IMG/VR virus record: IMGVR_UViG_3300045241_000033
Span: 1 to 51,452 of that record
DNA length: 51,452 nucleotides
Source: a virus
Lineage: Duplodnaviria; Caudoviricetes
Reading direction: 5' to 3' (one strand)
A model generated the notes under the pieces. The model saw nothing but the letters and a program-made list of their open reading frames with translations, ran no database searches and was not told the DNA's origin. This document shows, piece by piece, positions 3,795 to 46,326 of this stretch; position 1 is the first letter of the stretch, and each line of letters starts with the position of its first letter. A program made the position numbers and the translations under genes.

Positions 3795-4012
3795 GTGAGG
3801 TCGCGCCTCTCCGACTTGGGGACGCCCGCGGCTTTCAGCTTGTCATCCAGCAGGCTCCACACGGCGAACGTGTCGCGGCCCGGCTTGGAGAAGTTTCCGC
3901 CTAGAACCTTCGCGACGGCAAGCGCCTCTGTCCGGTCGAGAACGAGAGTGACGGTCTCGATGGGCGGCTCTACCGGCACGGGCTTACGTTGCTGCACTGT
4001 TACGGTTGCCAA
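3791..4012 (-). CDS. Hypothetical protein
   Basis: 73 aa ORF overlapping its neighbours in the operon. Confidence 0.6.
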   Translation of the reverse strand: MATVTVQQRKPVPVEPPIETVTLVLDRTEALAVAKVLGGNFSKPGRDTFAVWSLLDDKLKAAGVPKSERRDLT

Positions 4013-4775
4013 CTGATTTGCTCCATTCGTCGTAGTCGATTTTGTCGGCCCATGACGTCAGTGCGATCTCGTGATCGACGTCGATGGGGACGATCTCGTG
4101 TACATGCTCGAAGCCCCGGCGCATGAACACCGGCATCAGCCGGTTCAGCACGGGCAGCTCGCCCGTGGGGCCGTCGAGGATGATCTCGTCGTGTACGACC
4201 GAGACCATCTTCGTCTTCCAGTCTGCGGCCGTCGCGTGCTCGTGGACGTTCAGCAGTGCACGCTTCATGATCCCGGCGGCGCTGCCCTGGATGAGCTTGT
4301 TGAGCATCTTGTGCTCACCGAACTCCTCCATGTGCAGGTGCCGTCCGTCGATGCCGCGCAGGTATCCGCGCTTGGCGGTGACGCGCTTAACGTCGTCCTG
4401 CAGGATCGACACGAACGGGAAGTTCTTGTGGAACGTGCGGATCATCGCCTTAGCGTCGGCGGCGGTGCCGCCGAACTGCAGCTGGATCGTCTTCATGCCC
4501 CCGCCGTACATCAGCGAGAGGAACATGATCTTCCACTTCGTGCGCTCTTCCTTCGAAACGTCGGTCTGTCCGGTGACAAGCTGGGCGACCGCGGTGTACG
4601 GGTCGTAGCCCGCGCGGATGCGCGCAGCGAACTCGTCGTGCCCGAGCTTCGAGGCGAAGTACGCCGCGAGGCGGGGCTCGATGGATGCGTAGTCGAAGAA
4701 GGAAAAGGCCCCCCGCTTCGGCACGACCGCACGCTTCACGGTCGTGTCGTCGCGGGGGATGTTCTGCCAGTTCAT
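3984..4775 (-). CDS. polA: DNA polymerase family A, C-terminal palm/fingers subunit
   Basis: Begins NWQNIP; motif A DYASIEPR, motif B RTKWKIMFLSLMYG, NKLIQGSAA, motif C VHDE. Confidence 0.93.
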   Translation of the reverse strand: MNWQNIPRDDTTVKRAVVPKRGAFSFFDYASIEPRLAAYFASKLGHDEFAARIRAGYDPYTAVAQLVTGQTDVSKEERTKWKIMFLSLMYGGGMKTIQLQFGGTAADAKAMIRTFHKNFPFVSILQDDVKRVTAKRGYLRGIDGRHLHMEEFGEHKMLNKLIQGSAAGIMKRALLNVHEHATAADWKTKMVSVVHDEIILDGPTGELPVLNRLMPVFMRRGFEHVHEIVPIDVDHEIALTSWADKIDYDEWSKSVGNRNSAAT

Positions 4776-5294: not shown

Positions 5295-5981
5295 CTAGTC
5301 GAGCCCGGAGTCGTCAGAACTCAGCGTGATGCCGAGTGCTTCGGCACTGCCGGGCATGCTGATCTTCACCTTCGGCGTGTCGAGGGCGTCACGCGCGTCC
5401 TGCGCGTGGCCGATCAGCTCGGCATCCTCATACGCCTGACGGAACGCTTCGGACGCGTCATCGTCCGGCCCTGCGACCGGCACGATCATCGACTGCGGGA
5501 CGTTGTCGATGAGGACGTTGCCCATGATGTCCGTGACGGTGAACTTCGCCTCGGACTCGATCTGCGCCATACGCTCGTCCTGGATCTCCTGCAGCTCTGC
5601 AAGCTCGGCCTCCGCGATGGTGCGGGCCTCGTTGTACGCGGCAGCCTGCTCGCGGTTCTCGATGCGCCGCGCCTTGGACGTGCGCGTACGACGCTCCTGG
5701 CGCTCCTTGCGCCGGTTCTTGCGGCTCGTCGGCTGGGCCGGGCCCTTGATCTTGCGGGCCTGCTTCTTCAGCTTCGCGGCCATGCGGCCGACCACGGGGA
5801 ATGCTTCGGGATGTAGCGCGACCTGGCCCATGAAGACCGCGAGCTGTTCGTAGGACGCTTTCTCCTCGTCCGTCAGTACGACCAGCGTCTCGGCCTCATG
5901 GGCGCGGACGGTCACGTCTGCTGAGGCCCCGAGCAGGGCGGCCTGCTCGGGCGTCAACAGGATCTGTACTAGCTGGGTCAC
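5295..5981 (-). CDS. Hypothetical protein with Arg/Lys-rich helical segment (between PolA halves)
   Basis: GTG start in GTGA overlap at 5978-5981; 228 aa. Confidence 0.7.
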   Translation of the reverse strand: MTQLVQILLTPEQAALLGASADVTVRAHEAETLVVLTDEEKASYEQLAVFMGQVALHPEAFPVVGRMAAKLKKQARKIKGPAQPTSRKNRRKERQERRTRTSKARRIENREQAAAYNEARTIAEAELAELQEIQDERMAQIESEAKFTVTDIMGNVLIDNVPQSMIVPVAGPDDDASEAFRQAYEDAELIGHAQDARDALDTPKVKISMPGSAEALGITLSSDDSGLD

Positions 5982-6151
5982 ACGACCTCGTTCTCGAAGG
6001 CCGCGAAGATCGCTGCGCGCATCGTCTTGGTCTCGGGAAGAGCGGAATTGTCGGTGGCGCGCAGGTAGTGCCGCGCGTCCTCGATGGAGAGGCGCAGCAC
6101 GACCTCTTTCTCGACCGGCTCGACGGTTCGAAGCTCGGAGAGAATCTTCAA
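5978..6151 (-). CDS. Small hypothetical protein, 57 aa (not in ORF track)
   Basis: TAG-GAGG-CACC-TTG directly after the PolA-N stop; MKILSELRTVEPVEKEVVLRLSIEDA. Confidence 0.65.
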   Translation of the reverse strand: MKILSELRTVEPVEKEVVLRLSIEDARHYLRATDNSALPETKTMRAAIFAAFENEVV

Positions 6152-6159
6152 GGTGCCTC

Positions 6160-7275
6160 CTAGTTGTTGGATGCGGCGCTGGAGGACATGCGTCCTGTGC
6201 GCGCTGCGTCATCGTTGAAGTTGGGATGGACGTATCCATCGCGCTGCTCTTTCTTCAGCGTGACGAGGTACGTCGTGTGGATCTTCTTGTCGGAGCGGTA
6301 CTGCAGCAACGCCGCAGCCAGCTCGTCGTCGATGTCCCGCAGGACGTCAACGGCGGTGGATTCCAGCTTCACGCCGCGCTTTGCGAACGCTTCCGTGATC
6401 TGGACGGGCGACTGCGGGTTCAGGTCTGGGTTGCCGGTGAGCTTGACGATCTTCTCCCAGCCCTCCATGACCTTGACGCCGTACTCCGACGTGATGCAGT
6501 CGAGGTACGGGATGTCGAGCTTGAAGCTGTCGGCCTCCATGTCGAGTAGGACGAGCTTGAGCTGCATGAACTCGCGGTACAAGTCCTGGAGCCGGGCGTC
6601 CTGCAACTGCAGCTCCGGCAGGAGTTTCTCGTACAGCATGAGCGTGAAATCGGTGTCCTTGAGCGCGTACGGGACGAGCGCCTCCCGCGGGAGCAGGTGA
6701 TACCCGTCGTCCTTCTTGAGCTTCAGCTTGCGGCGTACGGCGCTGAGGTGGTGCTCCTCTTTCGGGACGCGCTTGAACGTGCCCTTGTTCGGGCCGGTCT
6801 TGATCTCGACCTCGATGGTGTCGTCCACCTTGAGCACGGTCGCAGCCAGGTGCTTCAGGCCCTTGCGTCCGTTCTCATCGAGCAGGACGTAGATCGTCTG
6901 CGTGTCGTGGATCTCTTTCTGCTGGATGTCCGCCAGCGTGAAGACGCCCGCGAGGATCAGCTTCTGCAGGTCGAATTTCGCGTTGTGGAAGACCCAGCGC
7001 GTGGCGAGCTGCATCAGGATGAGGCGCAGCTCCTGCACGCGCGTAGCGCGGCCGGGAACCTCGGGGTCGAGGTCGAAGTAGGCGTTGCGGAGGGAGCCGT
7101 CGAGACCACGCCAGGACAGCGTGGCCGCGAACGCGGAATCGTAGAACCCTACGCCCGATGTCTCCGTGTCAACCGCAACGGTCATGCTCTCCGGTGACAC
7201 ATCTGCGTCTGCGCGGAAACGCTTGTACCCCCACTCGGCCCAGGCGTTCCAGCGGTACTCCTTAAACCGCGGCAA
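6160..7275 (-). CDS. polA: DNA polymerase family A, N-terminal 3'-5' exonuclease/thumb subunit
   Basis: ExoI VDTET, ExoII HNAKFD, ExoIII YALKD, NPQSPVQI thumb motif; ends HPNF....ARTGRMSSS. Confidence 0.92.
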   Translation of the reverse strand: MPRFKEYRWNAWAEWGYKRFRADADVSPESMTVAVDTETSGVGFYDSAFAATLSWRGLDGSLRNAYFDLDPEVPGRATRVQELRLILMQLATRWVFHNAKFDLQKLILAGVFTLADIQQKEIHDTQTIYVLLDENGRKGLKHLAATVLKVDDTIEVEIKTGPNKGTFKRVPKEEHHLSAVRRKLKLKKDDGYHLLPREALVPYALKDTDFTLMLYEKLLPELQLQDARLQDLYREFMQLKLVLLDMEADSFKLDIPYLDCITSEYGVKVMEGWEKIVKLTGNPDLNPQSPVQITEAFAKRGVKLESTAVDVLRDIDDELAAALLQYRSDKKIHTTYLVTLKKEQRDGYVHPNFNDDAARTGRMSSSAASNN

Positions 7276-12677: not shown

Positions 12678-13313
12678 TCATACGACTTCATCCACGAGGC
12701 CGTGGTGCAAGGCCTCCCCGGCGTTCAGGTACCAGTCCCGGTGCTTGGTGTACTCGTCCAGCTCGCGCTCCGTTAGGTTGGAGCGGGAGGCCAGGATGCG
12801 GATCGTCTGCTTACTCCAGGCCATGGTTACCTCGGCCTCCAGCATGGCGTTGTCGGCCCCCATCCATGGCAGGGACTGGCCAGACTTGTGGATCATCAGG
12901 TGCGCCTCGCGGTCGATCCTGCGGGTCTTGGCGGCCTGGAGAATGACCGTGGCCATGGAGGCCGCCCAGCCGCGAACGTGGATGGTGAGCTTCGGGATAT
13001 CGGCCAGGAAGGCGTACAGGTGCAGTCCTGCCGTGTTGAGGCCCCCGTCCGAGTTGAGGTAGAGCGTGATCGGCTTGCGCGGTGCGTACCGGCGGAACTC
13101 GCTGATCTCCAGCATCAGCTCCTTGACCGAGGCGTTGTCCACGTCGGACGTGAAGTAGAAGACGCCGTTCCACCAGTCGCTCGACTCGGAGAGTCGCTCC
13201 TCGCGGGTGGCGTCCTCGGCCAGCACATGCGAGACGATCAGGTCGGCCTCCAGGCGTGCGATCTCCAGCTCCATCTTCCGCCGCTTCAGGGCTTTCAGGT
13301 CAGGGCCGGTCAT
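12678..13313 (-). CDS. clpP: ClpP-like serine protease
   Basis: LYLNSDGG, AASMA (catalytic Ser), LMIH (His), RDWYLNAGEAL..GLVDEV (Asp). Confidence 0.9.
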   Translation of the reverse strand: MTGPDLKALKRRKMELEIARLEADLIVSHVLAEDATREERLSESSDWWNGVFYFTSDVDNASVKELMLEISEFRRYAPRKPITLYLNSDGGLNTAGLHLYAFLADIPKLTIHVRGWAASMATVILQAAKTRRIDREAHLMIHKSGQSLPWMGADNAMLEAEVTMAWSKQTIRILASRSNLTERELDEYTKHRDWYLNAGEALHHGLVDEVV

Positions 13314-15595: not shown

Positions 15596-16042
15596 TCATA
15601 CGGGTGTCTCCTCTCTGGCGGGGGTGTCATTCACGTCGAGCCCCGGAAGGAACTCGCGCTTTCGTCTTAGCTCGTTATGCCTGTGCCGGTGCTCAGACGC
15701 AGACATCAGCTCTAGGTTCTCGATGCGATTGTCGAGCCGGTCACAGTTCTTGTGGTGAACGTGCTCGTCTGTGCGGAGGGGGCGCTTGAGATGCCGCGCC
15801 ATCACCGCACGGTGCTCCAAGATGTACCGGCGGGTGACCGCCATCTCGGGGAACGGCTCTGCCGAGGCGAGCACAAACGCGTATCCTTGCGTTGCGCTGA
15901 TGTAGCGTCCGCCGCGCCAGTTCTTCCGATTGTGTCCTGCGATGAAGCGCACGGGCCGACCTTTCTTCCAGCCAGCCCGTTTGTCGGTCTTAGTGGCGAT
16001 GGGTGCGGGTAGACCGCACCCGCACTCACAACACTTCGACAC
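15596..16042 (-). CDS. HNH endonuclease
   Basis: CECGCG N-terminus, LEHRAVM, EHVHHKNCDRLDNRIENL. Confidence 0.88.
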   Translation of the reverse strand: MSKCCECGCGLPAPIATKTDKRAGWKKGRPVRFIAGHNRKNWRGGRYISATQGYAFVLASAEPFPEMAVTRRYILEHRAVMARHLKRPLRTDEHVHHKNCDRLDNRIENLELMSASEHRHRHNELRRKREFLPGLDVNDTPAREETPV

Positions 16043-17069
16043 GATCCTTCTCCGTCGTCGTGTCGGTCAGACCCGGCAGGTACTCCCGCCGGATCCACTG
16101 GAACGCCTGCGTGCCCTCACCGAACGCAACGGTGATGCCGCCGGTCGCACCGGCCCGTACGTCACCCGCGACGAAGACGCCCGGAATGGACGACTCCTGT
16201 GGGTACGGCGAACGCTCCAGGTACGTGATGCCGTCGTCGCCCGTGTGGTAAAGCGGCCAGTCCTCACGCGGCACGTCGTAGCCTGTGAGGATGTAGCCCT
16301 CGGCGGTCTTGGCCCCGCTGAACCAGCCGGTAGCCGGTACGCCGCCGATGAACACGTAGGTGTGGTCGGGTCGCAGTCCGACCTTGCCCTCGTGCACCGC
16401 GATGGACACGCGGGACAGAGTCTCGTCGCCGTGCGCCGTCGTGATCTCGCCCTGCACCACGGTGATCCACGGCGTCTGATGGCGGGAGCCACGTTCGGCC
16501 GCGAGTCGTTGCCGCAGGTACATGCTTGTGGTCTCGGCGAGCGGGGAACGCGTCAGGATCGTCACTCGACGTGCGCCCTTGTCGGCCAGTGCGAGCGCCA
16601 GCTGCGCGCAGGAGTTTCCTCCTCCGACCAGCATGACGTGCTGACCCGCGTGCTCGTGCAGCGTCGTGGCATCGCACGCGTACTCGACGCCCCGCCCCTC
16701 GTACGGTCGGAGCGCGTCGAGCTTCGGGGTTGTCTCGCCCACAGCGATGATGACGCTGCGTGCGTACAGGTTCCGATCGGCTGTGGCCACCCACAGCTTG
16801 TCACCCATTCGCATGAGCGCGGTGACACGCTGGTCTGTCCACAACTCGGCCCCGAACTTACGAGCCTGCGCCGCGAGACCATCGAACAGCGCAGGCCCAC
16901 TGATGCCCTCGGGGAATCCGGGCACGTTCTCGATGAGCGGGGACTGATACGCCCTACCGCCGAGCGTGCCGGATGCTTCCAGCACGACGACGGACAGGCC
17001 CTCAGATCCCGCCTTGACTGCAGCGGTCAGGCCCGCAGGCCCGCCGCCGATTATGGCGAGGTCGTACAC
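16026..17069 (-). CDS. Thioredoxin reductase-like FAD/NAD(P)H oxidoreductase
   Basis: IIGGGPAG, IENVPGFPEGISG, VGGGNS, PGVFVAGDVR; CxxC is absent (YACDAT). Confidence 0.88.
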   Translation of the reverse strand: MYDLAIIGGGPAGLTAAVKAGSEGLSVVVLEASGTLGGRAYQSPLIENVPGFPEGISGPALFDGLAAQARKFGAELWTDQRVTALMRMGDKLWVATADRNLYARSVIIAVGETTPKLDALRPYEGRGVEYACDATTLHEHAGQHVMLVGGGNSCAQLALALADKGARRVTILTRSPLAETTSMYLRQRLAAERGSRHQTPWITVVQGEITTAHGDETLSRVSIAVHEGKVGLRPDHTYVFIGGVPATGWFSGAKTAEGYILTGYDVPREDWPLYHTGDDGITYLERSPYPQESSIPGVFVAGDVRAGATGGITVAFGEGTQAFQWIRREYLPGLTDTTTEKDRVEVL

Positions 17070-19382: not shown

Positions 19383-20337
19383 GGGGTCTGGACAGTTCCG
19401 TACAGACTCTTTACATCTGCCTGTCTAGGCCTGTATCCATGCGGGCCAGGTCTGGCCGGATGCTGGACAGTCCGGTGCATGCTGGACGTTCTGCAAGTGG
19501 ACACGTAGCAGGCTATCGTCCGCCACGGCCTCGATGCGGGGGCTGGTCATGCGTTCGTACAGCGGGGCTTGACCGTGGGATGACAGGCAATCACGACCGT
19601 GTCCGTGCCCAACCTCTCGACGTCCTACTACACCAGTGGCAACGATGACCCACTACCGCAGTAGTGCACGGCTGACCCCGTGGCTAGCCGTTGTGAGACC
19701 GTGGCAGGCATCGACGGCTGGGGCTCGGCGTACCATGAAACGGCCGATCCTGGCCCCCCTTACCTCCCGCGCGCGTACTTTGGAATGCCCGTGTACGGAT
19801 TCAGGAGCCCTGCACGGAATCGATCGATCGATCCCCCGGATCCCTGCATCCATACGGAAAATGCGGTGCGGTGCGCTCTATACAGTGGACCAATAGTTCC
19901 TCCTCCTCCCTTTCGGTCGGAGGATTGGGAAGAAGAGGTCTTTGGAAAACCATGGTAAGAGCTATATAGGTATATAGGGGCCCACCCAGCCTCCCCGAGG
20001 ACTCCCTGCTGTTGCCTTCCCCAGCATCGCCGAGGGAGGCCGCACGTCGCTCAATCGGTCGAAAACGGGGGCTCTACGTGGGGCGCGACGAGCGCGGTGA
20101 CCGTTCCCCGACGGCTTGAACAAGCGACGATGTCGGAGCCCCGGCCGCCCGCCAGGGCACGGCCGGTACCAGATAGGCTCCTGGGCATCCTCCCGGTGGG
20201 GGAGAGGCTCATCTTCCCTGGAAGAGGATCCGCAGAAGCTCTTTCACCGGGAGGGTTGTAGAAACCACCCTGATTCTCGTTTAAAGGGTGCCAGGGCATC
20301 TTTTCGGCGGACGGTGGAGATCGCCCTGGCACTCTTT

Positions 20338-20386
20338 GACCGTGGCTGGATAGGAAGCACGGGGGTTCGATCCCCCTACACGGTCA
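20338..20386 (+). ncRNA. tRNA-like mini RNA 1 (no anticodon arm)
   Basis: GACCGTG/CACGGTC acceptor-like stem plus A; GCT-GGATAGGA-AGC D-like arm; GGGGG-TTCGAT-CCCCC T-like arm. Confidence 0.6.
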
Positions 20387-20399
20387 CAGTCCGCAAGCA

Positions 20400-20464
20400 G
20401 ACCTCGCTAGGTAGACCGGGGCACTTCGGTGTCACGGGCAAGGGTTCGAGTCCCGCTGAGGTCA
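20400..20464 (+). ncRNA. tRNA-like mini RNA 2 (UUCG-capped arm in place of the anticodon)
   Basis: GACCTCG/TGAGGTC stem plus A; AGGTA D-like loop; GGCAC-TTCG-GTGTC; GGG-TTCGAGT-CCC. Confidence 0.6.
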
Positions 20465-20466
20465 TA

Positions 20467-20805
20467 GGGATAGGTCAGTCGGATGTCGTGCGCGCTTGCC
20501 CACGGCTCGGCTGAAGGGTCTACGACGCATATGCGTTGCGCTTCAACGCAGGTGGCTCGGGTGCAGTCCTTGCATCCGCTGTCGGAGGTGAAGGGGATCC
20601 GTGGTCTTTTTGGGGCTGCGGTGATCTGGAGCTGATGGCGGTGGGTGGGCGGTGCCCGTGGTCGAACTGAAACGGAGTGCGCGCGGCGTAACGGGGCTCG
20701 ATGTGTCGCAGGGCGTCTTGGAGCTGCAACTCCTCGGTACCGAGCGGCCGTGATCTTAGTCGGGTCGGTTCGTGCTTGTGAGCCGATCGATTACTGACCT
20801 GTCCC
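20467..20805 (+). ncRNA. Candidate ~340 nt structured ncRNA
   Basis: 13 bp closing helix GGGATAGGTCAGT/ACTGACCTGTCCC, several internal hairpins with G-U pairs, no credible ORF. Confidence 0.55.
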
Positions 20806-20898
20806 TTCCCTTTGCCCCTCGACCGAATCGGATTAGAACACGGGCCGGTCGAGGGGCATTTCTTTGTAAACACACCTAGGCGAGGAGAGAAACTCACT

Positions 20899-21582
20899 AT
20901 GGATGATCGCATTTGGCTTCCGGACGGTACGACCGTCCTGCCTAACGTGCTCGACGACGAGTTCGAGAAGTCGAACGTCGCGAACGTGCCGTGGAGCCTC
21001 ACGCTCGCAAACGCCGCTACGCTGGCCCTGACCTCCGCCGCCGCCGAGTTCATCACAGGCGGCCAGGCGATGAAGTTCACGTCCGGCACCGCGGCCAGCT
21101 CTGAGATCCACAAGTACCTCCCGATCCCGCAGCGGGCTATGGGCCCGCGCGGCGGTGGAGAGGTCGGCGTGGAGTGGATCTTCTCCGTCATGGACGAGAA
21201 CCCCTCGAACCTCGCCTTCTACGTGTCCTACCGCGATCAGGCGAACTGGATCCGAGCAAAGCTGCTCCATGTCTTCACCACGAACGTCTGGAGCTACCAG
21301 GACTCGGCCGGAGTGCAGCAGGCGCTGATGACGCGTGACACGTCCGAGAACACGGCTGTCCCACGGTGGCACCGTGTCGTCATGAGTATCGACGTCATCA
21401 AGAACACCTGGAAGCAGCTGACGATTGACGAGATGGACTTCTCGTCTGTGGTCAGTCTCCTACCGCTCCGCAACACCGCAGATGCCACGGCCCCGTCCTT
21501 GCTCGACTTCGCCGTCGAGTTCACGAACACGGCCACGCCCGGCGTGCTCAACATCGACAGCGTCCGTAGCTGGTACCGCTAA
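20899..21582 (+). CDS. Hypothetical beta-rich protein, possibly virion-associated
   Basis: RBS GAGGAG before ATG 20899; first gene of the late arm. Confidence 0.7.
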   Translation: MDDRIWLPDGTTVLPNVLDDEFEKSNVANVPWSLTLANAATLALTSAAAEFITGGQAMKFTSGTAASSEIHKYLPIPQRAMGPRGGGEVGVEWIFSVMDENPSNLAFYVSYRDQANWIRAKLLHVFTTNVWSYQDSAGVQQALMTRDTSENTAVPRWHRVVMSIDVIKNTWKQLTIDEMDFSSVVSLLPLRNTADATAPSLLDFAVEFTNTATPGVLNIDSVRSWYR

Positions 21583-22394: not shown

Positions 22395-23933
22395 GTGGAC
22401 TACCGCTCGCTGACCGCGGGCGGGACACATCGAGCAGAAGACCTGACCCGCGAGCTGCTTCCGGGCATGCTCGAAGCCCACGCGGTCAAGTACCTCTGGT
22501 TCCTGCAGAAGGGTTATCGCCCGCACATCTGGCAGATGCTCTTCCACTCCGCACGTAACGGGGGTGGCCTCGCGCGTTTCCGCCACCTCGTGGCCGGACG
22601 ACGCGGAGGCAAGACTCTGAGCGCAGCGTGGGAGGCACTCTTCTATGCGCTCCACCCGCGCGAGTTCCATCGAGACCGTCACGGTGTCGAGTCGGATCGC
22701 CCGCTGTGGATCTGGGGCCTGGCGAAAGATCATAAGCTCGGAGGCCCGAGCCTCGTCACGTTCATGGACGTGATCCGGCAGGCCGGGCTCGTCAAGAACA
22801 CCGACTACACGTACAACAAGACGGAGAAGGTCTTCGAGTTCTTCGGCCCCGGCGAACAACTGCTCGCGCGCGTCGAGTTCAAGACCGCCGTCGATCCGCA
22901 GTCACTGCGCGGTGCAGGCCTCGACATCCTCTGGATTGACGAGTCCGCCTTCATCACGACGCAGGAGGCGTGGAACGTCGTCTTCCCGGCGCTCGCCGAC
23001 AAGGAAGGCATGGTCATCACGACCACGACGCCGAACGGCAAGAACTGGTTCCACAAGCTCTTCTGGAGCGACCGTGCGCGACTCGACCTGAATCAGTTCC
23101 GCGTCGAGTACACGAGCATCGACAACCCCTACTTCAAGCGATCGGAGTGGGACTATGCCCTTGAGCACTACCACCCGTGGATGTTCCGGCAAGAGTTCAT
23201 GGCGTCCTTCGATGCGATGGCAGGTATCGCCCTCCCCGGAGACTGGCTCAAGTTCTGGGTGCGGGGAAACCCCGACATCCAGACGGACGACATTGGTCTG
23301 CCGATGGACGACAGCGGACAGCGGTACGACCTGCGGCTCTTCATCGGGGTAGATCCGGCGATCAGCCTCGCGGACACCGCCGACCACTTCGCCATGGCGC
23401 TCATCGGGATCACCCGACAGGGCGACCAGGCGTTCCTGATCGATTACTTCGTTGACAGGATCCAGTTCCCGGATCAGCTCGACAAGGTTCGCGAGTGGTT
23501 CCTGAAGTGGCGGCCGGAGAACATCGGCATCGAGTCGAACGCGTATCAGCGCGCGCTCATGCAGATGACGGCGCGCATGCAGGGTCTTCCACCCGTAACG
23601 GCAGTGATGTCGAAGGGGAAGAAGGAAGACCGCATCCTCGGGCTGGGGCCGCTCTTCAAGATCGGCACCGTCCGGATCAACAAGGAGCACCGCGAGTTCA
23701 TCGACCAGTGGGTGTCGTACGACCCCGAGAAGAAGAACGGGGACGACGACCTCCTGGACGCCGTTGAGATCGCGCTCGGCTCCGCGGGAGTTCTGCTCCC
23801 GATGATGCCGCACGTAGACCTCTTCCCCGGTGATGCCGAAGGCGGCTCGCTGGAGGAGCAGGCCTGGTTGCAGATCCAGAACAGCAAGGACAAGAACCGA
23901 TCCTACGATCCCGAGACGGGCTCGGAGGGCTAA
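22395..23933 (+). CDS. terL: Terminase large subunit
   Basis: AGRRGGKT Walker A, LRGAGLDILWIDES Walker B, TTPNGKNW, nuclease GVDPA...DDLLDA. Confidence 0.95.
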   Translation: MDYRSLTAGGTHRAEDLTRELLPGMLEAHAVKYLWFLQKGYRPHIWQMLFHSARNGGGLARFRHLVAGRRGGKTLSAAWEALFYALHPREFHRDRHGVESDRPLWIWGLAKDHKLGGPSLVTFMDVIRQAGLVKNTDYTYNKTEKVFEFFGPGEQLLARVEFKTAVDPQSLRGAGLDILWIDESAFITTQEAWNVVFPALADKEGMVITTTTPNGKNWFHKLFWSDRARLDLNQFRVEYTSIDNPYFKRSEWDYALEHYHPWMFRQEFMASFDAMAGIALPGDWLKFWVRGNPDIQTDDIGLPMDDSGQRYDLRLFIGVDPAISLADTADHFAMALIGITRQGDQAFLIDYFVDRIQFPDQLDKVREWFLKWRPENIGIESNAYQRALMQMTARMQGLPPVTAVMSKGKKEDRILGLGPLFKIGTVRINKEHREFIDQWVSYDPEKKNGDDDLLDAVEIALGSAGVLLPMMPHVDLFPGDAEGGSLEEQAWLQIQNSKDKNRSYDPETGSEG

Positions 23934-24766: not shown

Positions 24767-27307
24767 TTGGCTGACACCCCGAATCCCCAGTACCGCGGCG
24801 TACGCGACCTGCGAGAGGCAAAAGACCTCGCAGAGAAGCGGCGCGAGCTGGATAACCTCCGGCATCGCGACAAGATCGACTGGGTCTTGAACCGCGAGTT
24901 CTATAAGGGGAACCAGTATTCGTACTGGAACAAAGCGTACGGCAGCGGCGGCCGACTGGAGACCGAGGCGACCGACGAGGGCGACAAGCCCCACTACAAG
25001 GTGCGCCTCACGAACAACCAGATCCTTCCGGGCGTCAACCACTACGTCGCCCAGCTCACGAAGAACCGCCCGATCATCGCGGCAACGCCGGACTCAGGCA
25101 GCGACAGCGATCTGAAGTCCGCCCAGATGGGTACTGCCCTCTGGGACTACTGGTGGGGCACCATGTACCTGACGAGCAAGCTGCAGAGCGCGCTCAACAA
25201 CGCTGCGCTCTCGCAGGGGTACTGGTTCATCCAGTGGGACGCGCTCGCCGGGAAGTCCATGACGTACATGGTCGGCCCCGACGGTCAAGCGCTCGTCGGC
25301 CCGATGTGGTCGGACGACAACCTCGACATCTACCGCGACTCGCTGCGCGAAGCCGCGCAGCAGCAAGGCCACGATCCCGACGAAGTCGTCAAGCAGTTCA
25401 CGAAGACGGTTTCGGTCGGAGACATCTCCATCAAGGTGCTACCCGGTGAGAACGTACTGCTCGACCCGGCCGCTCCGACGTTCGAGGACGCGAAGTACGC
25501 GTTCGTCATCGAGAACATGTCGCCGGAGGAGGCTGCCGCACGGTGGCCGAAGGCGAAGGATATCGGGCCGGATGCGATCCCCGGCGATGAGTCCCTGAAT
25601 CTCTCAGGCCTCTCGCAGGAGAACGACCGCTCGAAGTCCGTTCGGCGCGTCTTCCACGGCTTCTTCGCGAAGAGCCCCGTGCTCCCGAAGGGCCGGTACG
25701 TCTGCTGGGTCGAGGGGCCGGACATCATCCTCTCGGACACAGCGTGGCCGTTCCCGTTTGACGAGCTTCCCATCGTGAAGTTCCCCGGTTTGGAGAGGCC
25801 GAACAGTCCGCTTGACATCCCTGTGACGACCGCGACGCGGCCGATCCAGAAGGACATCAACCGGACGATCTCCCAGGTCATGGAGCACAAGAACCTTACG
25901 ATGCGGCCGCAGCTGCTTGCCCCGACGGGCAGCATCTCGGAGCGCATCACGAGTGAGCCTGGCCGCACGTTCTACTTCAACCCGATCAACGGGGCAGTCC
26001 CCGAATGGCGCAAGATCCCGGATCTGCCGGGCTACGTCTTCGAGCATCTGCAGGAGCAGGAGCGGCGGCTCGACCGCTACTTCAACCGGATGCCGAACCA
26101 GCGTGACCAGCTCCCGGCCCGCATCGACAACGCGGACGGGATCGACATCATTCAGGAGTCGGTAGCCGACCAGCTCAGTCCCACCGTGCAGCGCCTCGAA
26201 AGCGCGCTCGTGCGCGCGGGGATGATAATGGCCAAGCTGGCGCAGCAGTATTACGTCGAGGAGCGCCTGCTCAAGATCAAGGGCTCCAACGGCGCGGTGC
26301 AGGTCAAGAAGTTCCGCAACGCTGACCTCGCGGGCGGCTTCTCGTTCCAGGCAGAGGCGGGCTCCGGCCTACCACGCACGCGGGCGGGCAAGCAGTCACG
26401 CATCGGCTTCATGCTGGAGAACCGCTTGATCGACCAGCGCACGGCGATGCGGTACATGGACACCGCCGACCTGACGGGCCTCACGGCCAAGGCTCAGGCC
26501 GCGGAGGAGCAAGCGTACCGCACCATCGAGAAGCTCAAGAAGGGCACGCCCCTCAATCCTCTCGCGCTCGAACAGGCGAAGGCGCAGGCGATGCAGGCGA
26601 TGCAGGATCCGAACGCAGACCTCAATGGCGACGGACAGCCTGAAGACCTGCAGACGAAGATGGGACTGATCCAGCAGATGCTGGAGCAGGCGTCACTTCA
26701 GCCGATGCCGCACGAGGATCCGGGCGTCCACCTCGACGTCCTGACGCAGTTCATGGACTCCGTCGAGTTCGAGAACCTCGACCCCGCTACTCAGAACCGA
26801 TTCAGCCAGCGCTTCACGGCGATGATGCAGATGAACATGCAGATCGCTCAGGCGTCTGCTCAGATGGGTGCGCCCGTCGAGCGGCCGAAGGTCACGCTCC
26901 AGATGAAGGCCACGTCAAGTGCGCCGGTCGCTGGGGAGATCCTTCGCGAGGCTGGGGTTCAGGTCTCTGACGAAGCGGTGGCACAGCCGCCGCTGGAGAC
27001 GTGGGTCACTGACAGCATCGACAAGGCGGACGCGGATGACGCGGGCAACGACCCGTTCACCGACGCCGAGAAGATGCAGACCCTGGTTCATAACCAGGAG
27101 CAGCATGCGAAGACGATGTCGAAGGCGGCCCACGAGGTCTCCCTCGCAGAGTCGAAGACGCACGGGGCTCAGCAAGACGCCTCCGGTCACGCCGACGCGC
27201 GTGCCGAGGCCGAGCACCAGCAGCGCATGAGGCACGCCGAGGAGATGCACCAGGCCAAGCTGGCCGCGGCGAAGCGTCCCCCGGCGAAGCCGAGCGGAGG
27301 CAAGTAA
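24767..27307 (+). CDS. Portal protein (large, podovirus type)
   Basis: 846 aa after terL; FYKGNQY, NQILP, RPIQKDIN; Gln/Met-rich C-terminal extension. Confidence 0.85.
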   Translation: MADTPNPQYRGVRDLREAKDLAEKRRELDNLRHRDKIDWVLNREFYKGNQYSYWNKAYGSGGRLETEATDEGDKPHYKVRLTNNQILPGVNHYVAQLTKNRPIIAATPDSGSDSDLKSAQMGTALWDYWWGTMYLTSKLQSALNNAALSQGYWFIQWDALAGKSMTYMVGPDGQALVGPMWSDDNLDIYRDSLREAAQQQGHDPDEVVKQFTKTVSVGDISIKVLPGENVLLDPAAPTFEDAKYAFVIENMSPEEAAARWPKAKDIGPDAIPGDESLNLSGLSQENDRSKSVRRVFHGFFAKSPVLPKGRYVCWVEGPDIILSDTAWPFPFDELPIVKFPGLERPNSPLDIPVTTATRPIQKDINRTISQVMEHKNLTMRPQLLAPTGSISERITSEPGRTFYFNPINGAVPEWRKIPDLPGYVFEHLQEQERRLDRYFNRMPNQRDQLPARIDNADGIDIIQESVADQLSPTVQRLESALVRAGMIMAKLAQQYYVEERLLKIKGSNGAVQVKKFRNADLAGGFSFQAEAGSGLPRTRAGKQSRIGFMLENRLIDQRTAMRYMDTADLTGLTAKAQAAEEQAYRTIEKLKKGTPLNPLALEQAKAQAMQAMQDPNADLNGDGQPEDLQTKMGLIQQMLEQASLQPMPHEDPGVHLDVLTQFMDSVEFENLDPATQNRFSQRFTAMMQMNMQIAQASAQMGAPVERPKVTLQMKATSSAPVAGEILREAGVQVSDEAVAQPPLETWVTDSIDKADADDAGNDPFTDAEKMQTLVHNQEQHAKTMSKAAHEVSLAESKTHGAQQDASGHADARAEAEHQQRMRHAEEMHQAKLAAAKRPPAKPSGGK

Positions 27308-45194: not shown

Positions 45195-45267
45195 AGCCGG
45201 AGAGCGGACTCGAACCGCTGACCCCGCCCTTACGAGGGGCGTGCTCTACCAACTGAGCTACTCCGGC
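45195..45267 (-). tRNA. tRNA-Thr(CGT)
   Basis: Complete cloverleaf GCCGGAG...CGCCC-CT-CGT-AA-GGGCG...AGCGG-TTCGAGT-CCGCT-CTCCGGC-T; CCA not encoded. Confidence 0.95.
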
Positions 45268-45440
45268 AGCCGTAGCACGTAGACCTTACCGCGCAGCTGC
45301 ACCGCCCAACGGCGCGGAAAGAGCATCCGCAGGACGGGAAGCCATCGCGACGTACGCAACGGAAAATCAAGCCATAGAGCATTACTCGTGTGCTTCAATG
45401 GGTCTCCAGTCGTAGAGGGGCCAGCAGGTTACGAGTGCAG

Positions 45441-45468
45441 TTGACAGATAGGCTGGCTCCTGTACAGT
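45441..45468 (+). promoter_or_regulatory. Putative housekeeping-sigma promoter of the integrase
   Basis: TTGACA-N16-TACAGT about 30 bp upstream of the ATG. Confidence 0.55.
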
Positions 45469-45498
45469 GTCTAGGTAGAACACTTCATAGGAGGCAGC

Positions 45499-46326
45499 AT
45501 GTCCCTTGTTTTCGAGCAGTACACAGACCGTCTCAGGCGCAAACGCAAGAGCCCGCACAGCTTAGCGGGCTTCGCCACAGCGTCCACCCGGCTCGAACGC
45601 TGGCTCGCGGCCCAGGGCCTGACGGCCGAGACCGCTACGTACGTCCAGCTGGAGGACTACTTCGACAACCTGGCCGCCGAGCTGAAGCCGAGCACGGCCG
45701 AGACCCACCTCAAGTACGTGCGGGCCGCGTACAACTACGCGATCCTCCGGGGCACGATCCGGGCGAACCCGGCGCTCGACCTGGAGGTCGCGAAGGGCCC
45801 GGACGTCGAGCCCACGATCATCCCGAACGAGTGCCTGCGGACGGTACGCGACCGCATCACGCTGCAGCGGGACTGGATCTTCTTCCACCTCCTGGCGTAC
45901 ACCGGGATGCGGCGGGCCGAGATCGTCGGACTGCGCTGGGAGGAGAACGTGCTCCTGGACGACCAGACGATCCGCGTCGTCGGGAAGGGTGGGAAGCTGC
46001 GGCTGATCCCGATCCACCCCGCGCTCGGGGAGGTGCTCAGCAAGTGCGAGAACCTCGGGCCGTTCGTCGTCTACTCGACGGGGAAGCGCGGCATCGCGTC
46101 CGAGACGATCCAGGACATCACGAAGCGCCTCTCCCCCTTCTACACGCCGCACGACTACCGGCGGACGGTGGCCACGAGCCTCGCGCGGAACGGCGTGCAG
46201 GAGAACATCATCGACCGGATCATGGGCTGGTCGGCGCGGACGGTGCGTGACCGCTACTACGTCAACGTGGCTGTCGAGGAGCTGCACCGGGGGATCCTCA
46301 AGCTGTACGCGGACGACCCGGTATGA
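45499..46326 (+). CDS. int: Tyrosine recombinase / integrase
   Basis: TGMRRAE, GKGGK, HDYRR, MGW, YY catalytic set; adjacent to a tRNA. Confidence 0.92.
   Translation: MSLVFEQYTDRLRRKRKSPHSLAGFATASTRLERWLAAQGLTAETATYVQLEDYFDNLAAELKPSTAETHLKYVRAAYNYAILRGTIRANPALDLEVAKGPDVEPTIIPNECLRTVRDRITLQRDWIFFHLLAYTGMRRAEIVGLRWEENVLLDDQTIRVVGKGGKLRLIPIHPALGEVLSKCENLGPFVVYSTGKRGIASETIQDITKRLSPFYTPHDYRRTVATSLARNGVQENIIDRIMGWSARTVRDRYYVNVAVEELHRGILKLYADDPV

What the first reader, a model, noticed from the sequence alone, without database searches (positions are those of the whole stretch)
20338..20464. Tandem tRNA mimics without a usable anticodon at the head of the late arm
Seen: two adjacent elements (49 and 65 nt) each begin GACC, end GGTC-A, and have a 7 bp acceptor-like stem and a TTCGA T-loop. 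Element 1 goes from a D-like hairpin straight to the T arm; element 2 has a C(UUCG)G-capped stem where the anticodon would be. Neither can decode. Known: RNase P, RNase Z and CCA-adding enzyme recognise the acceptor/T-arm half of tRNA. Inference: processing signals that release the neighbouring structured RNAs, or decoys for tRNA-targeting defence or tRNA-sensing proteins.
Basis: partly seen in the sequence, partly recalled or inferred. Interest (0 to 1): 0.8.

Follow-up and report, generated by a model that had tools for sequence, protein, structure and literature searches.

The report
Anticodon-less tRNA mimics punctuating a phage RNA
Two stripped-down tRNA look-alikes sit where related soil phages carry real tRNA genes, directly in front of a large folded RNA, and most likely act as cutting marks for the host's tRNA-trimming enzymes.

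Summary
Element 1 (20338-20386) and element 2 (20400-20464) each have a 7-bp acceptor stem, a canonical T-loop and no anticodon loop. ARAGORN and Rfam do not call them tRNAs.

The window is a complete 51-kb temperate soil phage. The elements lie in a non-coding cassette at the head of the late arm. Its order is promoter-like boxes, a hairpin with a conserved loop, element 1, element 2, a 341-nt stem-closed RNA, a terminator, then the first late gene.

In TerL-related phages the same slot holds true tRNAs (Gln, Asn, Trp, or arrays of 17-26) or four further anticodon-less mimics. The mimics' stems differ in sequence but stay paired. In 8 of 8 loci examined, a tRNA or mimic ends 1-4 nt before the closing stem of the large RNA. 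A soil metatranscriptome contig covers 20473-20801 only.

Best reading (about 0.55): these are tRNA-derived minihelices kept as RNase P and RNase Z processing marks that free the hairpin and the large RNA. Cleavage itself is not shown. Rival readings are neutral tRNA relics, an attached functional module, or a decoy. I class it as a new variant of a known kind.

The parts
20256..20285 (+). Promoter-like boxes: TTGTAG, an 18-nt spacer, then TTTAAA. This is inferred only.
   Evidence: Read by eye. A similar TTGTAG box and a TTTAC/TTATA-type box lie at the same distance before the hairpin in L010, L094, L009, L018, L024, L044 and L045. The consensus scan did not call it.
20283..20337 (+). 5' hairpin with a conserved loop containing TTCGGCGGACGGTGG. 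It ends immediately before element 1.
   Evidence: The fold gives -38.3 kcal/mol, z -6.3. The same loop occurs in 9 relatives with different stems. In the RNAalifold consensus, 10 of 15 pairs have a compensatory change across 10 sequences. The loop identity is fixed by the way the loci were searched.
20338..20386 (+). Element 1, an anticodon-less tRNA mimic. It has a 7-bp acceptor, a 3-bp D-like hairpin, a 5-bp T arm with loop TTCGATC, and discriminator A.
   Evidence: ARAGORN and Rfam do not call it a tRNA.
20387..20399 (+). 13-nt spacer between the two mimics.
20400..20464 (+). Element 2, an anticodon-less tRNA mimic. It has a 7-bp acceptor with one G-U, a UUCG-capped stem, a 3-bp T stem with loop TTCGAGT, and discriminator A.
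   Evidence: An ortholog in L009 (2166-2240) shows compensatory changes in the acceptor and in the capped stem.
20466..20806 (+). 341-nt structured RNA closed by a 14-bp terminal stem. It starts 1 nt after the discriminator of element 2.
   Evidence: The fold has z -3.5. Homologs exist in L010, L011 and L009. In the RNAalifold consensus, 28 of 82 pairs have a compensatory change across 4 sequences. The closing stem is shown. An RNA-library contig covers 20473-20801. No Rfam family matches.
20813..20868 (+). Terminator-like hairpin followed by ATTTCTTTGT.
   Evidence: The fold gives -31.5 kcal/mol, z -4.95. Hairpins followed by U-rich tracts sit at the same place in L009, L010 and L011. The consensus scan did not call it; I assume its long loop is the reason, which I did not check.
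20899..21582 (+). First late-arm ORF, 227 aa, no known family. It is preceded by a GGAGAG ribosome-binding-like box.
   Evidence: TerL lies at 22395-23933 and a P22-like portal at 24767-27307.

Best explanation
Elements 1 and 2 are tRNA-derived 'top-half' mimics. Each keeps the acceptor stem and T arm and has lost the anticodon arm.

They lie in a non-coding leader transcript of the late arm, in this order: 5' hairpin, element 1, element 2, 341-nt RNA, terminator.

I infer that the host's tRNA end-processing enzymes treat them as tRNAs:
- RNase P would cut at 20337/20338 and at 20399/20400.
- The 3' processing enzyme would cut after the discriminators at 20386 and 20464. No CCA is encoded, so I expect this enzyme to be RNase Z.

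These cuts would detach the conserved 5' hairpin and create the 5' end of the large RNA one nucleotide before its closing stem. Relatives use a real tRNA (Gln, Asn, Trp) for the same job. In this phage the decoding half has been lost and only the processing half is kept.

Shown:
- the anatomy of the elements;
- the shared slot with tRNAs in relatives;
- the fixed junction with the large RNA;
- the covariation.

Inferred:
- transcription from the promoter-like boxes;
- the cleavages;
- CCA addition to the released minihelices.
For: 1. Anatomy. Both elements have a 7-bp acceptor stem, a T arm and a TTCGANN T-loop, and no 7-nt anticodon loop.

2. Slot.
- In 78 TerL-related viral loci, ARAGORN finds same-strand tRNAs upstream of TerL.
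- Single tRNA-Gln(CTG) occurs in L009, L011, L013 and L018. L024 has Trp and L045 has Asn.
- Arrays of 17-26 tRNAs occur in L019, L022, L027 and L031.

3. More mimics at the same slot.
- They are L009 2166-2240, L010 2982-3031, L044 255-302 and L094 278-337 (minus strand).
- Each has 7 of 7 acceptor pairs, a 4-6 bp T stem, a TTCGANN loop and a non-tRNA middle of 14-42 nt.
- The stem sequences differ between elements.
- Neither ARAGORN nor Rfam at gathering score calls them.

4. Ortholog pair, element 2 versus the L009 mimic.
- Acceptor positions 5-68, 6-67 and 7-66 change from U-A, C-G, G-U to G-U, A-U, G-C.
- The capped stem changes one A-U to G-C.

5. Junction.
- The large RNA has nhmmer-supported homologs in 4 contigs. 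In 4 of 4 it directly follows a mimic (window, L009, L010) or tRNA-Gln (L011).
- In 8 of 8 loci examined, a 10-15 bp closing stem starts 1-4 nt after the tRNA or mimic and spans 258-353 nt.
- A true tRNA must be cut free at that junction in order to function.

6. No CCA follows the discriminator in any of the 6 mimics.

7. RNA evidence.
- One metatranscriptome run holds a 328-nt contig covering 20473-20801 and nothing else of 19800-21100.
- Of its 22 differences from the window, 9 fall in unpaired positions of the window's MFE fold.
- Another 9 keep the pair, all by G-U to G-C or A-U switches that work only on the + strand. The remaining 4 break a pair.

8. Literature.
- RNase P, tRNase Z and the CCA-adding enzyme accept an acceptor/T-arm minihelix (PMC3714273 introduction passage; PMC11143913 passages).
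- A 7-bp acceptor stem is described as a major RNase P determinant in a tRNA-like Y RNA (PMC4201824 passages).
Against: - No cleavage, discrete RNA end or CCA tail was observed. The RNA evidence is one low-depth assembled contig (depth 4.96), which cannot show ends or strand.
- Element 2 alone folds no better than shuffles. In the MFE fold of the whole 1-kb region its acceptor stem is not formed.
- Its T stem has only 3 bp, so acceptor plus T stack is 10-11 bp rather than 12.
- The four mimics in relatives were found with a descriptor that demands 7 of 7 acceptor pairs. Their perfect stems are therefore partly built in.
- The descriptor also gives false hits: 5 on the opposite strand and one in coding sequence, L014.
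- Near-identical strains show no informative variation inside 20338-20464.
- Two mimics in tandem are more than is needed to make one RNA end.
- The host and its processing enzymes are unknown.
Confidence: 0.55

Rival explanations
1. The elements are neutral relics. They would be tRNA genes of the late-leader slot that lost their D and anticodon arms by deletion and are drifting without function.
For: - The slot is a tRNA-gene slot in relatives, and its gene content turns over fast. It holds nothing in L025, one tRNA in others, or arrays of 17-26.
- Element 2 has a weak 3-bp T stem and no thermodynamic signal.
- No variation among close strains is available to test constraint.
Against: - In all 6 mimics the acceptor stem (7 of 7 pairs) and the T-loop consensus survive while the decoding half is unrecognisable.
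- The ortholog pair, element 2 and the L009 mimic, differs by compensatory changes.
- Where a large RNA is present, the 1-4 nt junction with its closing stem is kept whether the partner is a tRNA or a mimic.
- Part of the stem evidence is circular, because the descriptor demanded pairing.
Confidence: 0.15
2. The elements act as tRNA mimics in their own right rather than merely as cutting marks. One form is a module that stays joined to, or works with, the large RNA, for example to recruit a tRNA-binding factor or to serve as cargo. The other form is a released CCA-tailed minihelix that soaks up a tRNA-targeting defence enzyme or a tRNA sensor that reads the acceptor end.
For: - Two mimics in tandem exceed what one RNA end needs.
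- The central UUCG/UUAA-capped stem of element 2 is kept, with a compensatory change, in L009. A pure cutting mark would not need it.
- GOLLD RNAs are reported to carry tRNAs in a linker region (bioRxiv 10.1101/2024.12.08.627333, discussion passages).
- Bacterial Y RNAs carry tRNA-like modules that are cut by RNase P and receive CCA (PMC4201824 passages).
Against: - With no anticodon loop, the elements cannot decoy nucleases that cut the anticodon loop.
- The RNA contig covers the large RNA without the mimics (weak evidence).
- In L011, L013 and L045 the partner is an ordinary tRNA, which must be released.
- The phage has no Ro60/TROVE gene and no CCA-adding enzyme gene.
Confidence: 0.2
3. The elements work at the DNA level, as an attP core made of a tRNA fragment or as a packaging or origin site, and are not RNA elements.
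For: - The phage is temperate, with a tyrosine integrase at about 45390-46272.
- The region lies upstream of the terminase genes, where cos or pac sites often sit.
Against: - The integrase lies 25 kb away, next to a complete tRNA-Thr(CGT) at 45195-45267, which is the likelier attP.
- Both strands of each acceptor stem are present. An att fragment carrying only the 3' part of a tRNA gene would not need that.
- Stems covary between relatives and include G-U pairs that work only in + strand RNA.
- A terminator with a U tract lies on the + strand.
Confidence: 0.03
4. The resemblance is due to chance.
For: Given a T-loop-like heptamer, some 7-bp partner within 80 nt is not very rare. The descriptor gave 5 hits on the opposite strand of the 79 related loci scanned (L007-L084 and L094).
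Against: - 0 of 200 shuffles give two hits within 200 nt on one strand.
- The same architecture recurs at the same slot in four other phage contigs.
Confidence: 0.02

Closest known systems
Half-tRNA 'minihelix' model substrates of RNase P, tRNase Z and the CCA-adding enzyme
   Same: Both have a coaxial acceptor stem plus T arm with a T-loop and no anticodon or D domain. The stack is 12 bp in element 1 and in the L009 and L094 mimics. The literature says these enzymes accept such minihelices (PMC3714273 passage; PMC11143913 passages).
   Different: The known substrates are laboratory constructs. Here they are natural, conserved genomic elements with an extra central segment of 14-42 nt. Element 2 stacks only 10-11 bp. 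Cleavage is not shown.
GOLLD and ROOL, large ornate RNAs of phages and prophages that lie near tRNA genes
   Same: All involve a large structured RNA of unknown function in a phage, next to and probably co-transcribed with tRNAs (PMC5737381 ROOL section; bioRxiv 10.1101/2024.12.08.627333 passages).
   Different: The 341-nt RNA here matches neither Rfam model, even at E<=10, and is much shorter (ROOL averages 581 nt; many GOLLD exceed 800 nt). The partner here is an anticodon-less mimic, which I did not find described for GOLLD or ROOL in the passages read.
mascRNA at the 3' end of MALAT1, and the mitochondrial tRNA-punctuation model (recalled, no call)
   Same: In both, a tRNA-like fold inside a longer transcript is cut by RNase P and RNase Z and so defines the end of a neighbouring long RNA.
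   Different: Those cases are eukaryotic or organellar. mascRNA keeps a cloverleaf with an anticodon-like arm and lies 3' of the long RNA. Here the mimic lies 5' and has no such arm.
YrlA-type bacterial Y RNAs with a tRNA-like module
   Same: Both are non-decoding tRNA mimics. The M. smegmatis YrlA, which has a 7-bp acceptor, is cut by RNase P and receives CCA. YrlA-type RNAs are also reported in phages (PMC4201824 passages).
   Different: YrlA is encoded beside Ro60 and carries a Ro-binding stem. This phage has no TROVE gene, and no Rfam Y RNA family matched the region at E<=10.
Phage RNAs matured by RNase P: C4 antisense RNA of P1/P7 and M3 RNA
   Same: These are phage non-coding RNAs whose precursors are RNase P substrates (PMC11143913 passage and reference list).
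   Different: I read only a listing, not their structures. As I recall, they lack a canonical T-loop. No sequence or family relationship was tested.
tRNA-like domain of tmRNA
   Same: Both have an acceptor stem and T arm without an anticodon arm.
   Different: In tmRNA the two acceptor strands are separated by the whole mRNA-like domain, and a tag reading frame is present. ARAGORN's tmRNA search found none here.
Allo-tRNAs and irregular tRNA polycistrons from soil metatranscriptomes
   Same: Both come from soil, have unusual acceptor/T proportions (8/4, 9/3) and are arranged in tandem (PMC7609411 allo-tRNA section passage; PMC5389517 abstract). Element 2's MFE fold has 8 acceptor pairs plus 3 T-stem pairs.
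   Different: Allo-tRNAs keep an anticodon arm. These elements do not.
Phage T4 tRNA cluster with stable RNAs 'species 1 and 2', and synthetic polycistronic tRNA-guide RNA arrays (both recalled, no call)
   Same: In both, non-tRNA RNAs are co-transcribed with tRNAs and released by the tRNA-processing machinery.
   Different: The flanking units there are real tRNAs. My search for the T4 RNAs found no paper holding that term, so this comparison rests on recall.

Membership tests
Canonical tRNA (Rfam RF00005; ARAGORN) | Cloverleaf with a D arm and an anticodon arm of 5 bp plus a 7-nt loop | tested here: not met
   Element 1 goes from a 3-bp hairpin straight to the T arm. Element 2 has a 4-nt UUCG loop. 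ARAGORN makes no call. There is no RF00005 match at E<=10.
Canonical tRNA (Rfam RF00005; ARAGORN) | 7-bp acceptor stem, T arm with a TTCRANN loop and a G53-C61 pair, and a discriminator base | tested here: met
   The T stem is 5 bp in element 1 and 3 bp in element 2.
RNase P / RNase Z minihelix substrate (works-like claim) | Coaxial acceptor plus T stack of about 12 bp capped by a T-loop | tested here: met
   The stack is 12 bp in element 1, with one bulged nt, and 10-11 bp in element 2. The four mimics in relatives have 11-13 bp.
RNase P / RNase Z minihelix substrate (works-like claim) | No encoded CCA after the discriminator, since CCA blocks RNase Z (recalled) | tested here: met
   The bases after the discriminator are CAG for element 1 and TAG for element 2. 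None of the four mimics in relatives is followed by CCA.
RNase P / RNase Z minihelix substrate (works-like claim) | Actual cleavage at position +1 and after the discriminator | not testable with these tools
   Only Logan contigs of one RNA run were available. They cannot show ends.
tmRNA | Tag reading frame between the two acceptor strands, detected by ARAGORN | tested here: not met
   ARAGORN searched for tRNA and tmRNA and found one tRNA only. There is no Rfam tmRNA match.
YrlA / bacterial Y RNA | Encoded beside a Ro60 (TROVE) gene, with a match to an Rfam Y RNA family | tested here: not met
   PF05731 has no match in the whole phage record, while the control genomes respond. No Rfam Y RNA family matched 19700-21000 at E<=10.
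GOLLD / ROOL (for the neighbouring 341-nt RNA) | Match to the Rfam covariance model | tested here: not met
   There is no match at gathering score in the window, at E<=10 in 19700-21000, or at gathering score in 13 relatives.
GOLLD / ROOL (for the neighbouring 341-nt RNA) | Large structured RNA in a phage or prophage next to tRNA genes | tested here: met
attP tRNA-gene fragment | A 3' part of a host tRNA gene lying next to the integrase gene | tested here: not met
   The integrase lies at about 45390-46272 beside tRNA-Thr at 45195-45267. The elements are 25 kb away and carry both acceptor strands.
Allo-tRNA (8/4 or 9/3) | Long acceptor, short T stem, and an anticodon arm | tested here: not met
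   Element 2 can be drawn 8/3 but has no anticodon loop.

The most novel reading that the evidence does not exclude
The cassette would be a previously undescribed phage RNA system made of a conserved-loop hairpin, a tRNA or anticodon-less tRNA mimic, and a 260-350-nt stem-closed RNA. It would sit at the head of the late operon in a large family of temperate soil phages. In this reading, maturation of the large RNA is hard-wired to the host tRNA-processing machinery, as a natural counterpart of synthetic tRNA-guide arrays. The released CCA-tailed minihelices would themselves be active small RNAs, for example sponges for enzymes or defence systems that read the tRNA acceptor end.
Probability: 0.2. 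Interest if true: 0.8.

Novelty: new variant of a known kind. Interest (0 to 1): 0.62.

Why it matters
If the reading is right, tRNA genes in phages can lose their decoding half and survive purely as processing marks.

- This would explain some 'broken' or undetected tRNA-like stretches in phage tRNA slots.
- It would give a concrete, testable maturation route for a new large structured phage RNA.
- It would link that RNA class to the long-noted but unexplained closeness of GOLLD and ROOL RNAs to tRNA genes.
- It would flag a conserved non-coding leader (hairpin, mimic, large RNA, terminator) in front of the late genes of a large and uncultured family of soil phages.

Tried and rejected
1. Close relatives by DNA or by the neighbouring 227-aa protein.
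- There was no match in the cultured-phage collection. TerL matched there at only 23-30% identity.
- In viral contigs only identical fragments of the same phage turned up.
- Nothing was found in metagenome contigs or genome contigs.

2. A covariance model of the mimics.
- MAFFT could not align them in register (A3-A5).
- Model R1, built from element 1 and the L044 mimic, was too sequence-specific.
- Of 33 matches at E<=5 in 80 sources, it recovered its two seeds, the L094 mimic (21.6 bits, E 0.087) and part of the L024 tRNA-Trp call.
- Most of the rest lie inside true tRNAs by their coordinates. Two are on the opposite strand and I did not examine them: L046 (24.8 bits, the best non-seed score) and L031.
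- It missed element 2 and the L009 and L010 mimics.
- I therefore used a scripted descriptor and a pair table instead. No R-scape-type test was possible.

3. A wider family of the large RNA.
- Iterated nhmmer stayed at 4 contigs.
- A conserved-motif scan of viral contigs gave 13 stretches. The 9 new ones were unrelated, some of them coding.

4. A metagenome scan for the hairpin loop. The machine gave no answer three times.

5. The L014 descriptor hit (2842-2891) is rejected. It lies in a coding repeat of TGGTTCGAC.

6. Variation among near-identical strains.
- One DNA contig (X8) is identical from 20340 to 20590, covering both elements from their third base.
- One contig (X9) is identical from 20405 to the end of element 2.
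- For X3, at least 11 of the 12 differences lie outside the elements.
- There is therefore no information on constraint.

7. The parts of 19800-21100 without RNA cover in run X11 are not evidence of absence.

8. Host identification through TerL in genome contigs gave only 4 MAG contigs, labelled with four different taxa, at 35-51% identity. No host is named.

10. Supplementary files of the papers were not opened. Those of PMC5737381 and of the GOLLD/ROOL structure preprint may list tRNA-adjacent or tRNA-like features that I could not see.
Full report
**What the window is**

The window is a whole IMG/VR virus record of 51,452 bp, estimated complete, with about 64% G+C.

- Bases 1 to about 19,200 carry minus-strand replication genes. 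These are a primase/helicase-like AAA_25+Toprim protein, a family A DNA polymerase in two pieces, an ERF recombinase, a PD-(D/E)XK nuclease and a ClpP-like protease.
- From ATG 20899 onward the plus strand carries the late arm. It holds a 227-aa protein of no family, TerL (22395-23933) and a P22-like portal (24767-27307).
- A tyrosine integrase lies at about 45390-46272, beside a tRNA-Thr(CGT) on the minus strand. The phage is therefore temperate.
- Runs that hold the region are labelled soil metagenomes.

**Check of the observation**

Both elements are as described.

- Element 1 (20338-20386) has seven Watson-Crick acceptor pairs, a 3-bp hairpin with loop GGATAGGA, a 5-bp T arm with loop TTCGATC and discriminator A. 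One or two unpaired bases lie before the acceptor 3' strand.
- Element 2 (20400-20464) has six Watson-Crick pairs and one G-U in the acceptor, a UUCG-capped stem, a T stem of only 3 bp with loop TTCGAGT, and discriminator A.
- Element 1 folds this way with z -3.1. Element 2 folds this way but is no more stable than shuffles.
- ARAGORN and Rfam do not call either element a tRNA. Element 1 gives only 15.2 bits against tRNA-Sec, whose gathering score is 47.
- The T-loop motif GGTTCGANNCC occurs three times in the window, in the two elements and the true tRNA, against 0.69 expected.
- A descriptor for T-loop plus 7-bp acceptor hits the same three places against 0.265 per shuffle. 0 of 200 shuffles have two hits within 200 nt on one strand.
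- The six mechanical ORFs I tested in and beside the region match no Pfam family.

**The cassette around the elements**

Bases 19,900-20,898 are non-coding. Reading 5' to 3' on the plus strand:

- Promoter-like boxes, by eye only. The consensus scan does not call them.
- A very stable hairpin at 20283-20337, z -6.3.
- Element 1, starting at the next base.
- A 13-nt spacer.
- Element 2.
- One base later, a 341-nt RNA (20466-20806) closed by a 14-bp stem, z -3.5.
- A strong hairpin followed by ATTTCTTTGT, z -4.95.
- A ribosome-binding-like box and the first late ORF.

**Finding relatives**

Searches with DNA and with the 227-aa protein gave only identical fragments or nothing. TerL, however, belongs to a large family, with 657 proteins at E<=1e-30 among the candidates scored.

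- An alignment of 30 TerL sequences retrieved 80 viral loci. Two are fragments of this phage and 78 are relatives at 49-73% identity.
- 47 of the 78 relatives have at least 1500 nt upstream of TerL.
- ARAGORN finds same-strand tRNAs upstream of TerL in many of the loci.
- A single tRNA-Gln(CTG) occurs in L009, L011, L013 and L018.
- L024 has Trp, L045 has Asn, L033 has Met, and L049 has Met plus Gln.
- Arrays of 17-26 tRNAs occur in L019, L022, L027 and L031.
- The head of the late arm is therefore a tRNA slot in this phage family.

**The hairpin**

Its loop motif of 15 nt was found in 71 viral stretches. In ten of them, counting the window, it sits in a hairpin upstream of TerL.

- The nine relatives are L009, L010, L013, L018, L024, L025, L044, L045 and L094. 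Their stems differ in sequence.
- RNAalifold finds 15 pairs, 10 of them with a compensatory change. The loop identity is fixed by the search.
- With up to two substitutions, the motif lies upstream of TerL in 13 of 78 loci.
- In the window, L010, L024, L045 and L094, a tRNA or mimic begins within about 10 nt after the consensus hairpin.

**More mimics**

A scripted descriptor found further same-strand elements with a 7-bp acceptor and a T arm that ARAGORN does not call.

- The four mimics are L009 2166-2240, L010 2982-3031, L044 255-302 and L094 278-337 (minus strand of the locus).
- Their middle parts of 14-42 nt contain no 7-nt anticodon loop. T stems are 4-6 bp, T-loops are TTCGANN, and the discriminator is A in 3 of the 4 (5 of 6 with the two window elements).
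- Rfam at gathering score calls only ordinary tRNAs in these loci.
- Across all 6 mimics, each acceptor position except 3-70 shows 2-4 pair types. Strands of different elements do not fit each other, with a mean of 3.67 of 7 pairs and 0 of 30 combinations reaching 7.
- This last result is partly circular, because the descriptor demanded 7 pairs.
- The descriptor also gave 5 hits on the opposite strand and one false hit inside a coding repeat, L014.
- It also picked up real or odd tRNAs that ARAGORN missed, at L019 353-419, L019 1475-1552, L027 1336-1402 and L056 1083-1150.
- The independent evidence is position, described next.

**Junction with the large RNA**

- The 341-nt RNA has homologs in L010, L011 and L009.
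- RNAalifold on the four sequences gives 82 pairs, 28 of them with a compensatory change.
- In 4 of 4 of these, the RNA directly follows a mimic (window, L009, L010) or tRNA-Gln (L011).
- L009 has hairpin, tRNA-Gln, a 48-nt spacer, mimic and large RNA. This is the arrangement of the window with a true tRNA in the place of element 1.
- Element 2 and the L009 mimic look orthologous. They share the start GACC and a capped stem with one A-U to G-C change. Acceptor pairs 5-68, 6-67 and 7-66 change while staying paired.
- I examined eight loci: window, L009, L010, L011, L013, L024, L044 and L045.
- In all eight, a 10-15 bp closing stem starts 1-4 nt after the tRNA or mimic and spans 258-353 nt.
- For L013, L024, L044 and L045, assignment to the same RNA family rests on this stem and on a shared 3' motif seen by eye. 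nhmmer gives only a weak partial hit for L013.
- I left out L094 because the locus ends too soon. I left out L018 because the tRNA is followed directly by a terminator. I left out L025 because the hairpin is followed by the late genes, with no tRNA.
- A 10-bp stem of this kind could arise by chance in roughly one case in ten by my estimate. The 14-15 bp stems could not.
- Terminator-like hairpins with U tracts follow the RNA in the window, L009, L010 and L011.

**RNA and strain data**

Eleven runs hold part of the region, one of them an RNA library. I laid three DNA runs and the RNA run on 19800-21100.

- The RNA run, 15.8 million letters in total, holds one 328-nt contig at depth 4.96. It covers 20473-20801 with 22 differences and one gap, and covers nothing else of the stretch.
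- This fits a stable RNA bounded by the closing stem. Contigs cannot show ends, strand or level, so it is a weak hint.
- Of the 22 differences, 9 fall at unpaired positions of the window's MFE fold and 4 break a pair.
- The other 9 keep the pair, all by switches between G-U and G-C or A-U, which preserve pairing only in the + strand RNA.
- DNA contigs of close strains show no informative difference inside the two elements.
- In one X8 contig the sequence follows the window through the 5' half of the hairpin and then runs on differently. It runs into letters that include a TAGCTCA motif, which is typical of a tRNA D arm.
- That suggests a true tRNA in the place of element 1 in a close relative. 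Only 30 letters were shown.

**Mechanism**

[quoted passage not shown] E. coli RNase P RNA cuts hairpin model substrates made of acceptor stem, T stem and T-loop (PMC11143913, passages). A 7-bp acceptor stem is described as a major RNase P determinant in the tRNA-like Y RNA of M. smegmatis, which is cut and receives CCA in vivo (PMC4201824, passages).

- The mimics have exactly these features and no encoded CCA.
- A true tRNA at the same junction in L011, L013 and L045 must be cut free to work.
- The simplest reading is that the mimics are cut in the same way, which releases the hairpin and sets the 5' end of the large RNA.
- The cleavages, CCA addition and the promoter are inferred.

**Comparison with known systems**

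- The RNA here matches neither Rfam model.
- The phage has no Ro60 gene and no CCA-adding enzyme gene, so this is not a YrlA system.
- Full-text searches did not turn up a description of such elements. I used terms on phage tRNA-like elements lacking an anticodon and on GOLLD/ROOL with tRNA.
- The search library is incomplete, and supplements were not opened.

**Rivals**

- Neutral relics of tRNA genes (0.15) fit the fast turnover of the slot. They fit poorly with intact acceptor and T features and with the kept junction.
- An active mimic, either attached to the large RNA or released as a decoy (0.2), is not excluded. It would explain the tandem copy and the conserved capped stem.
- An attP or other DNA site (0.03) is unlikely, because the integrase sits beside tRNA-Thr 25 kb away.
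- Chance (0.02) is excluded for practical purposes.

**Limits**

- There are only six mimics in five contigs.
- There is no formal covariation statistic.
- My covariance model failed to generalise.
- The metagenome scan failed three times.
- The host is unknown.

Noticed in passing
window 20466-20806 (+): A 341-nt structured RNA with a 14-bp closing stem. It matches no Rfam family and has homologs in three related phage contigs. 28 of 82 consensus pairs show compensatory changes. A soil metatranscriptome contig covers 20473-20801. It may be a new class of large phage RNA next to tRNAs.
   Followed up: partly
window 20283-20337 (+); also L009, L010, L013, L018, L024, L025, L044, L045, L094: A hairpin with a conserved loop (contains TTCGGCGGACGGTGG) and covarying stems at the start of the late leader. 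It is preceded by promoter-like boxes. It could be a 5' stabiliser, an antitermination signal or a protein-binding signal. Its function is unknown.
   Followed up: partly
window 45195-45267 (-) and about 45390-46272 (+): A complete tRNA-Thr(CGT) lies next to a tyrosine integrase. This is probably the attP region of a phage that integrates into a host tRNA-Thr gene.
   Followed up: partly
window 3984-4775, 5295-6239, 6160-7275 (all -): The family A DNA polymerase is split into two ORFs. One carries the exonuclease plus the N-terminal polymerase part and the other carries the C-terminal part. Between them lies a 314-aa ORF of no Pfam family.
   Followed up: no
L019 31-2011, L022 2561-5070, L027 659-3213, L031 324-3234: Relatives carry arrays of 17-26 tRNA genes in the same slot upstream of TerL. 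Several gaps of 130-420 nt within the arrays were not examined for mimics or other RNAs.
   Followed up: no
L019 353-419 and L027 1336-1402: These are tRNA-like genes with an apparent 9-nt anticodon loop (TCTCCTAAA). Rfam calls them tRNA (36.6 and 33.9 bits) but ARAGORN does not.
   Followed up: no
L024 1647-1721: ARAGORN calls a tRNA-Trp(CCA) directly after the hairpin, but Rfam at gathering score does not. It has an unusual D region and may be intermediate between a tRNA and a mimic.
   Followed up: no
window 19900-20250 (+): The upstream part of the non-coding region is also held by related strains (contigs covering 19916-20095). In one X8 contig, 20096-20288 is skipped or replaced. Its role is unknown.
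   Followed up: no
window 12678-13313 (-) and 16026-17069 (-): The phage encodes a ClpP-like protease and a pyridine nucleotide-disulphide oxidoreductase (thioredoxin-reductase-like) in the early arm.
   Followed up: no
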